The notes beneath the pieces were generated by a model, which made no database searches, was not told the DNA's origin, and was given only the letters and a program-made list of their open reading frames with translations. From NCBI GenBank assembly GCA_000004985.1, contig GG739167.1: DNA of 3,057 bases; one strand, 5' to 3'. Of this stretch, positions 2,575 to 3,057 are shown piece after piece. The position numbers were made by a program, and so were the translations under genes. Source of the stretch: Naegleria gruberi (Eukaryota). Numbering within the stretch: the first letter of the stretch is position 1; every line of letters starts with the position of its first letter.

Positions 2575-2666
2575 TTGTTTAGGATGAGATGGAGATGATA
2601 CAGCGTGTTGTTTCCTTTGTGGAGTTCCTTTCTTGTTATTACCAGACATTTCGAATAATTTTTTGA

Positions 2667-3057
2667 GCATGGAAAATTTTTAACAACTCGGAATTGAGGT
2701 CGCTTATTAAGCATATCGGAATATTTTCACTTTATTTTGTAATTTACAATCGGAAACAAGTCCATTCCTCATATTCAATCGGAATTCAACATAATTTATC
2801 TCAAGGTGTTAGAGTTGCAAAATATGATGATCCTCCTATTTCTGAACACAGTGAAGATGAACTAACGGATGAACAATCTAAGAAACCAACTAAAAGGTTT
2901 GAATCTTATACTAAGGATGAAAATGGAAAGTTTTCAACTGAAGTTTGTTTTCGTGGATCTACTGAAGAATTTATTACAGAATTTCAAAGGCATATCAGAA
3001 ACAAATCAAGTGCTAATTGTAACAGAAGAATTAATAGACGAAATAACATTAAACCAA
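2667..3057 (+). CDS. Partial CDS continuing beyond the right edge of the window. It encodes a hypothetical acidic, hydrophilic protein, and its start is unresolved.
   Basis: Frame 0 (codons at 2667, 2670 and so on) is open for 130 codons to the window edge. In 68% AT DNA the chance of this is about e^-10.

From about 2806 onward there is strong codon periodicity (GAA GAT GAA CTA ACG GAT GAA CAA ...). Translation of that part: ...YDDPPISEHSEDELTDEQSKKPTKRFESYTKDENGKFSTEVCFRGSTEEFITEFQRHIRNKSSANCNRRINRRNNIKP.

There is no in-frame ATG anywhere in 2667-3057. A TGA at 2664-2666 directly precedes the open frame. The in-frame ATGs at 2589 and 2595 are separated from it by that TGA.

The opposite strand carries stops in all three frames across 2850-2940. 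Confidence 0.45.
2688..2785. promoter_or_regulatory. Array of four TCGGAA(T/A) motifs at a period of about 30 bp, immediately upstream of the strongly coding-like part of gene B. This could be a zinc-cluster-type (CGG) binding array or a repeat inside coding sequence.
   Basis: TCGGAAT lies at 2688-2694, TCGGAAT at 2716-2722, TCGGAAA at 2750-2756 and TCGGAAT at 2779-2785. The spacings are 28, 34 and 29 bp. The extended contexts are CAACTCGGAATT, ATATCGGAATAT, ACAATCGGAAAC and TCAATCGGAATT. The expected number of TCGGAA in 100 bp at this composition is about 0.02. Confidence 0.4.

What the first reader, a model, noticed from the sequence alone, without database searches (positions are those of the whole stretch)
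2580..3057. Gene B is strongly coding-like but has no usable start: a TGA separates the upstream ATGs from a 130-codon open frame
The frame reading from 2667 to 3057 is certainly protein-coding by its periodicity and openness. It contains no ATG. In the same frame, ATG codons at 2589 and 2595 follow a purine-rich AGGATGAG stretch. They open a 25-codon frame (MEMIQRVVSFVEFLSCYYQTFRIIF) that ends at a single TGA at 2664-2666. The long open frame begins on the next codon.

Several explanations are possible:
- an intron whose 3' splice site lies in 2667-2822, for example the AG at 2804-2805 after the pyrimidine tract TTTATCTC;
- a nonsense allele, pseudogenisation or sequencing error at the TGA;
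- stop-codon readthrough or a uORF-plus-reinitiation arrangement.

The four TCGGAA repeats at about 30-bp spacing lie inside this ambiguous 2667-2822 stretch. That stretch could therefore be untranslated or regulatory sequence rather than coding sequence.
Basis: seen in the sequence. Interest (0 to 1): 0.55.

Follow-up and report, generated by a model that had tools for sequence, protein, structure and literature searches.

The report
Truncated gene copy lacking its start
The start-less open frame is the severed tail end of the last exon of a small Naegleria gruberi orphan gene. Its three upstream exons and its splice acceptor are not in the window, and the extra 42 open codons in front of it are chance, so this is an ordinary gene fragment rather than an unusual translation mechanism.

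Summary
The coordinates are correct: ATG at 2589 and 2595, TGA at 2664-2666, 130 open codons from 2667 with no in-frame ATG, and four TCGGAA copies.

Only 2793-3056 is coding. It has strong 3-base periodicity (GC3 0.12, p<0.0005). The stretches 2667-2792 and the 25-codon "uORF" have none.

Residues 43-130 of the frame are 100% identical to residues 83-170 of Naegleria gruberi predicted protein NAEGRDRAFT_64045 (XP_002680806.1, 174 aa). An independent contig, L001, carries an intact copy of the gene: an ATG, three short GTAAGT/GTATGT...AG introns, and a last exon that starts 41 nt before the point matching window 2792.

Window-to-L001 identity is 116/117 from 2792 onward and about 32-38% (background) upstream. 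The window therefore holds a 5'-truncated copy that lacks exons 1-3, the acceptor and the first 41 nt of exon 4.

The TGA is not a mutated sense codon. No intron acceptor lies in 2667-2822, and the AG at 2804-2805 is exonic in intact copies.

The TCGGAA cluster is non-random (7 observed against 1 expected). It belongs to the unrelated flanking DNA and its role is unknown.

The cause of the truncation (deletion, partial duplication or insertion) cannot be settled without the genome. Interest is low.

The parts
2792..3057 (+). 5'-truncated fragment of the last exon (exon 4) of a NAEGRDRAFT_64045-family gene. Codons run from 2793. The annotated protein ends INLD*, four codons beyond the window.
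   Evidence: 88/88 aa identical to XP_002680806.1 residues 83-170. 116/117 nt identical to L001 1098-1214. Strong codon periodicity: G=37.9, p<0.0005, GC3 0.12.
2791..2792 (.). Homology breakpoint, equivalent to L001 1097|1098, which is 41 nt inside exon 4 of the intact gene.
   Evidence: The BLASTN alignment starts abruptly at 2792. Ungapped identity is 32-38% in the 20-60 nt upstream against 99% downstream. It coincides with the periodicity change point at 2781-2790. The preceding bases are CA, not an AG acceptor.
2667..2791 (+). Unrelated flanking DNA that happens to stay open in the exon's frame (42 codons). It is not coding.
   Evidence: No periodicity: G=0.6, p=0.996. No similarity to L001 1-1097 (local score p=0.26). 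Chance of staying open is 0.04-0.07.
2688..2784 (+). Four same-strand copies of TCGGAA at 2688, 2716, 2750 and 2779; three read ATCGGAA. Spacings are 28, 34 and 29 nt, in three codon phases. This is a DNA-level motif array in the flanking sequence, ending 7 nt before the breakpoint.
   Evidence: 7 copies in the window against 0.99 expected, and 0 of 200 shuffles reach that.
2589..2666 (+). There is no coding signal on this strand.
   Evidence: Periodicity p=0.76. No Pfam hit.
2530..2649 (-). Small antisense ORF, MSGNNKKGTPQRKQHAVSSPSHPKQRVDPPLPPKNRCAH*, overlapping the 'uORF'. The four motifs, read as TTCCGA on this strand, lie about 40-135 nt upstream of its ATG. Status uncertain.
   Evidence: Weak periodicity: p=0.03, GC by codon position 0.58/0.53/0.26. 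No homologue, no Pfam hit, not on record.

Best explanation
The window comes from Naegleria gruberi or a near-identical strain. Positions 2792-3057 are a 5'-truncated copy of the last exon of a small, lineage-restricted, multi-copy orphan gene (NAEGRDRAFT_64045 / NAEGRDRAFT_76419 family).

In an intact copy the gene has an ATG exon, two further exons and a final exon. They are joined by three very short canonical introns of 48, 40 and 55 nt, with GTAAGT or GTATGT donors and AG acceptors.

In the window, everything upstream of a point 41 nt inside the final exon has been replaced by unrelated DNA. This includes the promoter, the ATG, exons 1-3 and the final acceptor. The fragment therefore has no start codon because its start lies in exons it no longer has.

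The 42 open codons between the TGA and the breakpoint are a chance extension of the frame into flanking non-coding DNA. The upstream ATGs and the TGA have nothing to do with the gene. Most likely the fragment is not translated and is a young gene relic.

Shown: the homology, the abrupt breakpoint, the exon-intron structure of the intact copy, and the confinement of coding signal to 2793 onward. Inferred: that the fragment is non-functional, and how it arose (5' deletion, partial duplication, or a large insertion into exon 4).

The TCGGAA x4 array belongs to the flanking DNA. It is probably a protein-binding motif array, either promoter elements of the antisense small ORF or subterminal repeats of a mobile element. 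This is inference only.
For: -: residues 43-130 of the frame are 100% identical to residues 83-170 of XP_002680806.1 (NAEGRDRAFT_64045).
- the model's first 82 residues are encoded nowhere in the window.
- only two relatives exist among 1.84 billion representatives. Both share the N-terminus: NAEGRDRAFT_76419 and an ENA ORF.
- contig L001 carries ATG 563, introns 698-745, 843-882 and 1002-1056 (GTAAGT, GTAAGT and GTATGT donors, AG acceptors), and exon 4 from 1057 encoding GLHYCSNILSKKLSNLSQGVRV... contiguously. This matches the independent JGI protein.
- window 2792-2908 matches L001 1098-1214 at 116/117. Identity upstream is 32-38%, and no other part of the window matches L001.
- periodicity is confined to 2793-3056, with a change point at 2781-2790.
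- 42 open codons arise by chance with p 0.04-0.07.
- no frame-compatible ATG...GT/AG solution combines a consensus donor (GTAAGT or GTATGT) with an intron under 1 kb.
- PMC8296547 Table 2: the average N. gruberi intron is 203 bp, with 1.7 exons per gene.
Against: - The retained 88 codons carry no disabling mutation. The two differences from L001 are both synonymous third-position changes, so constraint or use cannot be excluded.
- The genome itself could not be searched. I could not show whether the window is a second locus or the NAEGRDRAFT_64045 locus with an insertion.
- No transcript data were available.
- The 42-codon chance extension is a mild coincidence (p about 0.04-0.07).
Confidence: 0.8

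Rival explanations
1. The window is the NAEGRDRAFT_64045 locus itself. A block of foreign DNA of at least 2.8 kb, possibly a mobile element whose right end carries the ATCGGAA subterminal repeats, is inserted into exon 4. The rest of the gene lies upstream of window position 1. The annotated model (or an intact allele) bridges the insertion as if it were an intron ending at 2791.
For: - The identity with XP_002680806.1 is perfect and starts exactly at the T of the split Ser codon at 2792.
- The junction sits at a TA/TAA, as in TA- or TWA-target transposons.
- Four same-strand motif copies lie within 105 nt of the junction.
- The window also holds other gene fragments and a foldback-like inverted repeat.
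Against: - No terminal inverted repeat partner and no transposase ORF were found in the 2.8 kb available.
- The model's other junctions look like canonical ab initio splice choices, and an ab initio model would not accept a CA acceptor.
- TA at a junction is expected by chance in DNA that is 68% A+T.
Confidence: 0.2
2. The fragment has been recruited as the 3' exon of a new chimeric gene. An upstream exon in or beyond the window supplies an ATG and splices to an AG in 2667-2814.
For: - 299 frame-compatible ATG...GT/AG combinations exist. One example is donor GTAAGT at 1624 to AG 2812, an intron of 1189 nt.
- The 88 retained codons are intact.
Against: - All solutions with family-type donors need introns over 1 kb, against 40-55 nt in the family and a 203-nt species mean.
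- Solutions with short introns use non-consensus donors such as GTGTTG or GTTATT.
- No candidate upstream exon shows coding periodicity on the + strand.
- No annotated protein matches any such chimera.
Confidence: 0.07
3. TGA readthrough, a nonsense allele or sequencing error at 2664, or a uORF with reinitiation. Under this view the protein starts at ATG 2589 or 2595 and continues through the TGA.
For: Only the shared reading frame and the absence of further stops.
Against: - No periodicity in 2589-2663 (p=0.76) or 2667-2792 (p=0.996).
- No homology of this stretch to the intact gene.
- No protein in 5.8 billion matches residues 1-42 of the frame.
- The ATG frame is antisense to a somewhat better small ORF.
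Confidence: 0.02
4. Assembly chimera. The junction at 2791|2792 is a misjoin between a copy of this repeated gene and unrelated sequence.
For: - The gene is multi-copy, and repeat boundaries are where misjoins occur.
- None of the window's other ORFs is on record anywhere.
Against: Misjoins normally occur inside shared repeat sequence, not at a unique point 41 nt into an exon. There is no positive evidence. It is not testable here.
Confidence: 0.05

Closest known systems
Naegleria gruberi NAEGRDRAFT_64045 (XP_002680806.1 / EFC48062.1, 'predicted protein', 174 aa)
   Same: Residues 83-170 are identical to window 2793-3056. The reading frame is the same, and the protein ends 4 codons after the window.
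   Different: Its first 82 residues are not encoded in the window. These are exon 1, part of exon 3 and the first 14 codons of exon 4. The window lacks the ATG, the introns and the last acceptor.
NAEGRDRAFT_76419 (XP_002668662.1) and the ENA contig L001 (ERZ929261 k127_454702)
   Same: Same gene family. L001 shares 116/117 nt with the window's fragment, and together these define the full four-exon structure.
   Different: They contain the 5' exons. L001 itself has a 4-nt deletion in exon 1 and a deletion of about 75 nt in exon 3. The NAEGRDRAFT_76419 model stops by reading into intron 3 (EIVC*).
Truncated (fragment) pseudogenes, meaning partial gene duplicates or deletion relics in eukaryotic genomes (general knowledge)
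   Same: Homology to only the 3' part of a parent gene, an abrupt boundary, no start codon, and unrelated flanking DNA.
   Different: The retained part has no disabling mutation, so it is very young or still constrained. Its mode of origin is unresolved.
Subterminal hexamer repeats of DNA transposons, for example the AAACGG transposase-binding repeats of maize Ac (my own knowledge; a lead only)
   Same: Several copies of a short CG-containing hexamer at irregular spacings of about 30 nt within about 100 nt of a sequence discontinuity.
   Different: No terminal inverted repeat, no demonstrable target-site duplication, no transposase, and all copies are in one orientation. Membership is not established.

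Membership tests
NAEGRDRAFT_64045/76419 orphan gene family (complete gene) | Sequence identity to the last exon | tested here: met
   88/88 aa. 116/117 nt against L001.
NAEGRDRAFT_64045/76419 orphan gene family (complete gene) | ATG exon and the two internal exons present upstream | tested here: not met
   tblastn of P0001 and blastn of L001 find nothing else in the window.
NAEGRDRAFT_64045/76419 orphan gene family (complete gene) | Canonical acceptor (TTTTAG|GGT) at the start of the last exon | tested here: not met
   The first 41 nt of exon 4 and its acceptor (L001 1051-1097) are absent. Window 2790-2791 is CA.
Truncated gene fragment / pseudogene | Homology to part of a parent gene, ending abruptly in unrelated DNA | tested here: met
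   99% identity downstream and 32-38% upstream of 2791|2792.
Truncated gene fragment / pseudogene | No initiation codon available in frame | tested here: met
   No in-frame ATG from 2667 to 3056, and no Met in the remaining residues of XP_002680806.1 from residue 83 onward.
Truncated gene fragment / pseudogene | Disabling mutations or relaxed constraint in the retained part | tested here: not met
   No stop or frameshift in 88 codons. The two differences from L001 are both synonymous. This is compatible with a very young relic.
Truncated gene fragment / pseudogene | Not transcribed or translated | not testable with these tools
   No transcript or ribosome data were accessible.
   Homology and periodicity begin at 2792, after ...TTCAACA. 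The AG at 2804-2805 is exonic in L001 and XP_002680806.1.
   Family-type donors (GTAAGT or GTATGT) give introns over 1 kb. Short introns need non-consensus donors.
   No periodicity on either side of the TGA until 2793. No homology upstream of 2792.
DNA transposon terminus with subterminal repeats | Clustered short repeats next to the element end | tested here: met
   4 x TCGGAA in 2688-2784, ending 7 nt from the breakpoint.
DNA transposon terminus with subterminal repeats | Terminal inverted repeat at the other end, and a target-site duplication | tested here: inconclusive
   No matching inverted terminus in window 1-2791 (pair I10 crosses the breakpoint and looks like chance). The junction lies at TA/TAA, but the other end would lie outside the window.
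DNA transposon terminus with subterminal repeats | Multi-copy in the genome with a conserved end | not testable with these tools
   No tool gave access to the N. gruberi genome.

The most novel reading that the evidence does not exclude
The unrelated DNA left of 2792 is the end of an uncharacterised Naegleria mobile or fragment-capturing element. Its terminus carries an array of ATCGGAA protein-binding repeats, and it inserted into, or captured, the last exon of the orphan gene. The window's other gene fragments (two LRR units, an S30-like N-terminus) and its foldback inverted repeat would then be part of the same fragment-rich element.
Probability: 0.12. Interest if true: 0.35.

Novelty: new member of a known kind. 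Interest (0 to 1): 0.15.

Why it matters
It matters little beyond annotation hygiene.

A long, clean-looking open frame with no start in an AT-rich protist genome is here explained by gene truncation plus a chance in-frame extension. It needs no readthrough, recoding or cryptic intron.

It also flags two things. The NAEGRDRAFT_64045/76419 family is a decaying multi-copy orphan family whose gene models are inconsistent: one skips internal coding sequence and one reads into an intron. And a statistically real ATCGGAA motif array exists in Naegleria non-coding DNA. That array could be followed up as a candidate cis-element or transposon end if it recurs genome-wide.

Tried and rejected
- Pfam on the 130-aa frame, on a composite 250-aa full-length protein, and on P0001 and P0002: only sub-threshold noise. 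PDB sequence search: nothing.
- AlphaFold2 single-sequence model of P0001: pLDDT 51.6, uninformative, so no fold search was run.
- JGI metagenome scan: two loci (L002, L003). L002 was inspected: a 53.5% GC bacterial contig whose 261-aa ORF matches only through the chance word ENGKFSTE. L003 shows the same 47%-identity match over the same query residues 24-59 and was rejected by analogy, without separate inspection. Both rejected as homologues.
- Viral contig scans with the composite protein and with the left-hand ORF: negative.
- Exact-protein look-ups of P0001, P0002 and eight window ORFs to recover a contig overlapping the window: all negative.
- Homologue searches for the left-hand ORF and the antisense small ORF: no hits.
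- Rfam and tRNA scans: nothing at or near threshold in 2400-3057. The bacterial promoter/terminator scan is irrelevant and at background.
- Literature search for the locus tags: no paper.
- The second open frame 2866-3057, with ATG 2869, was considered as the real gene and rejected. Its per-position GC (0.42/0.15/0.31) is only the shifted image of the true frame.
- Weak similarity between the antisense ORF (KGTPQRK) and the gene's N-terminus (QGTPQKK) was judged to be chance.

Full report
**Observation.** The window is 3057 nt at 31.6% G+C. Every coordinate in the finding is correct:
- AGGATGAG at 2581-2588.
- In-frame ATGs at 2589 and 2595.
- A 25-codon frame ending at TGA 2664-2666.
- A stop-free frame of 130 codons from 2667 to the window end, with no in-frame ATG.
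- TCGGAA at 2688, 2716, 2750 and 2779.

The four TCGGAA copies fall in codon phases 0, 1, 2 and 1, so they are a DNA-level repeat and not a peptide repeat.

**How much is coding.**
- Position-specific composition is strongly periodic only in 2793-3056. GC at codon positions 1/2/3 is 0.40/0.40/0.12, G=37.9, and 0 of 2000 shuffles reach it.
- It is flat in 2667-2792 (0.33/0.29/0.34, G=0.6, p=0.996) and in the 25-codon ATG frame (p=0.76).
- A two-segment likelihood scan puts the onset of periodicity at 2781-2790.
- Openness alone is weak evidence in this composition. First-order Markov simulations of the window give a longest open stretch of 91 codons on average and at least 130 codons in 3.6% of cases.

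**Identity.** A search of 5.8 billion proteins with the 130-aa translation returned one hit, P0001. This is XP_002680806.1 / EFC48062.1, NAEGRDRAFT_64045, a 174-aa 'predicted protein' of Naegleria gruberi on a 938,756-bp scaffold.
- The match is 88/88 identical, covering query residues 43-130 and protein residues 83-170. That corresponds to window 2793-3056.
- The protein ends INLD*, four codons after the window.
- Its first 82 residues are encoded nowhere in the window on either strand (tblastn with word size 2 and E up to 100).
- The remaining residues, from 83 onward, contain no methionine.

**The intact gene.** An exhaustive HMMER scan of 1.84 billion cluster representatives with P0001 found only two relatives, and both share its N-terminus. 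P0002 is XP_002668662.1, NAEGRDRAFT_76419, 146 aa, on a 14.9-kb scaffold. P0003 is a 78-aa ORF from an ENA metagenome assembly.

Looking up P0003 returned its contig, L001 (1216 nt, ERZ929261). Aligning P0001 and P0002 to L001 gives the gene structure:
- ATG at 563.
- Exon 1 to 697.
- Intron 698-745 (GTAAGT...AG, 48 nt).
- Exon 2.
- Intron 843-882 (GTAAGT...AG, 40 nt).
- Exon 3.
- Intron 1002-1056 (GTATGT...TTTTAG, 55 nt).
- Exon 4 from 1057.

Exon 4 encodes GLHYCSNILSKKLSNLSQGVRVAKYDD... as one contiguous stretch, identical to residues 69-121 of the independently derived JGI protein. Two independent sources therefore agree that the residues preceding NLSQG lie in the same exon.

**The breakpoint.** BLASTN of the window against L001 gives a single significant alignment: window 2792-2908 to L001 1098-1214, 116/117 identical.
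- Ungapped identity in the 20-200 nt upstream is 32-43%, which is background for this composition.
- The best local alignment of L001 1-1097 against window 2401-2791 is no better than shuffles (p=0.26).
- Homology therefore starts abruptly at 2792, which is 41 nt inside exon 4.
- This is the same nucleotide at which identity to XP_002680806.1 begins: the T of its Ser-82 codon, where the window has CAT.
- It also coincides with the periodicity change point.
- The bases before it are CA, not AG.

The window thus contains a 5'-truncated copy of the last exon. It has no promoter, no ATG exon, no internal exons and no acceptor.

The two nucleotide differences from L001 (2855 and 2909) are both synonymous third-position changes, and there is no disabling mutation in the 88 codons. 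The fragment is either very young or still under constraint.

- *Intron acceptor in 2667-2822.* The true acceptor of this exon is missing from the window. The proposed AG at 2804-2805 lies within the codons for S-Q-G in intact copies.
- *Possible splice rescues.* An exhaustive enumeration finds 299 frame-compatible ATG...GT/AG combinations, as expected by chance. Those with family-type donors (GTAAGT at 1624) need introns of more than 1 kb. That compares with 40-55 nt in this family and a 203-nt species average (PMC8296547 Table 2). Those with short introns use non-consensus donors.
- *Nonsense allele or readthrough at the TGA.* The DNA around the TGA is not homologous to the gene and has no coding signal.
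- *Chance extension.* The 42 open codons between the TGA and the breakpoint have a chance probability of 0.039 from local-composition shuffles, or 0.07 empirically from the rest of the window. This is a mild coincidence, and it is the reason the region caught the eye.

**What lies upstream.** The TCGGAA array is real: 7 copies in the window against 0.99 expected, with 0 of 200 shuffles reaching 7. It contains a CpG in a window with CpG observed/expected of 0.64. It is the only non-low-complexity hexamer with four copies within 120 nt. Three copies read ATCGGAA and three read TCGGAAT.

The array ends 7 nt before the breakpoint and belongs to the non-homologous flank.

On the minus strand the motifs read TTCCGA. 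That ORF shows weak periodicity (p=0.03, GC 0.58/0.53/0.26). It has no homologue and no family hit.

Two readings of the array are possible and neither is testable here:
- promoter elements for that antisense ORF;
- subterminal repeats of an element whose end is at 2791.

**Mechanism of truncation.** Three routes give the same picture:
- deletion of the 5' part of the gene (possibly an allele of NAEGRDRAFT_64045);
- partial duplication;
- insertion of at least 2.8 kb into exon 4, with the rest of the gene lying beyond the window's left end.

I could not reach the N. gruberi genome with any tool. Exact-protein look-ups for P0001, P0002 and eight window ORFs all failed. This remains open, and a single BLASTN against the reference would settle it.

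**Comparison and novelty.** The closest known object is the annotated gene itself. The window's copy fails three of four defining features of a complete family member: ATG exon, internal exons and acceptor. It fits the ordinary category of a truncated gene fragment.

The family has no detectable relatives outside N. gruberi and no domain:
- HMMER scan;
- Pfam;
- PDB;
- viral contigs;
- JGI metagenomes, which gave two loci: L002, inspected, is a bacterial chance word match, and L003, with the same weak match, was rejected by analogy.

A single-sequence AlphaFold model is low confidence (pLDDT 51.6).

Family members look decayed or inconsistently modelled. L001 has a 4-nt deletion in exon 1 and a deletion of about 75 nt in exon 3. 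The NAEGRDRAFT_64045 model skips internal coding sequence. The NAEGRDRAFT_76419 model terminates by reading into intron 3.

**Verdict.** This is a real but ordinary feature: a start-less relic of a last exon plus a chance in-frame extension. Interest is low. The only unexplained element is the ATCGGAA motif array.

Noticed in passing
window 2-247, minus strand: An ATG-initiated ORF runs off the left end of the window. Residues 12-34 (GLARSGKVKYQTPRVEK...) match Pfam Ribosomal_S30 just above its cut-off (E=1.1e-6, 29.2 against 27 bits), and the sequence then diverges. There is no hit in the protein database and periodicity is weak (p=0.17). It may be an S30-derived fragment or an unannotated gene.
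   Followed up: partly
window 366-572, minus strand (tandem repeat 377-510): Two RNI-type leucine-rich repeat units (Pfam LRR_6, E=1e-5) are encoded by a 72-nt tandem repeat. The stretch shows coding periodicity (p=0.008) but has no start. It is another gene fragment in the same window.
   Followed up: partly
window 509-558: A perfect 23-nt palindrome (509-531 / 536-558, 4-nt loop) directly abuts the LRR fragment. Its only Rfam matches are far-sub-threshold miRNA-hairpin hits.
   Followed up: no
window 854-1113 and 2000-2070: An interrupted long inverted repeat, with arms 854-878/2046-2070 (96%), 1011-1043/2017-2049 (88%) and 1090-1113/2000-2023 (88%). It forms a foldback-like structure of about 1.2 kb. 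Its outer left end begins ATCGGAAC, which is the fifth TCGGAA copy in the window.
   Followed up: no
window 2473-2491: A 9+1+9 palindrome, CAATGTTTC-c-GAAACATTG, carries a reverse-strand TCGGAA (2479-2484). It lies downstream of the antisense small ORF.
   Followed up: no
window 2866-3057, + strand, shifted frame: A second open frame of 64 codons with an ATG at 2869 (MNNLRNQLKGLNL...) overlaps the real coding frame. Its per-position GC (0.42/0.15/0.31) is only the shifted image of the true frame, so it is probably not coding.
   Followed up: yes
L001 563-1056: The metagenome copy of the gene is itself damaged. It has a 4-nt deletion in exon 1, which causes the frameshift that produced ORF P0003, and a deletion of about 75 nt in exon 3 relative to NAEGRDRAFT_76419. 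The two JGI models of the family are also mutually inconsistent.
   Followed up: partly
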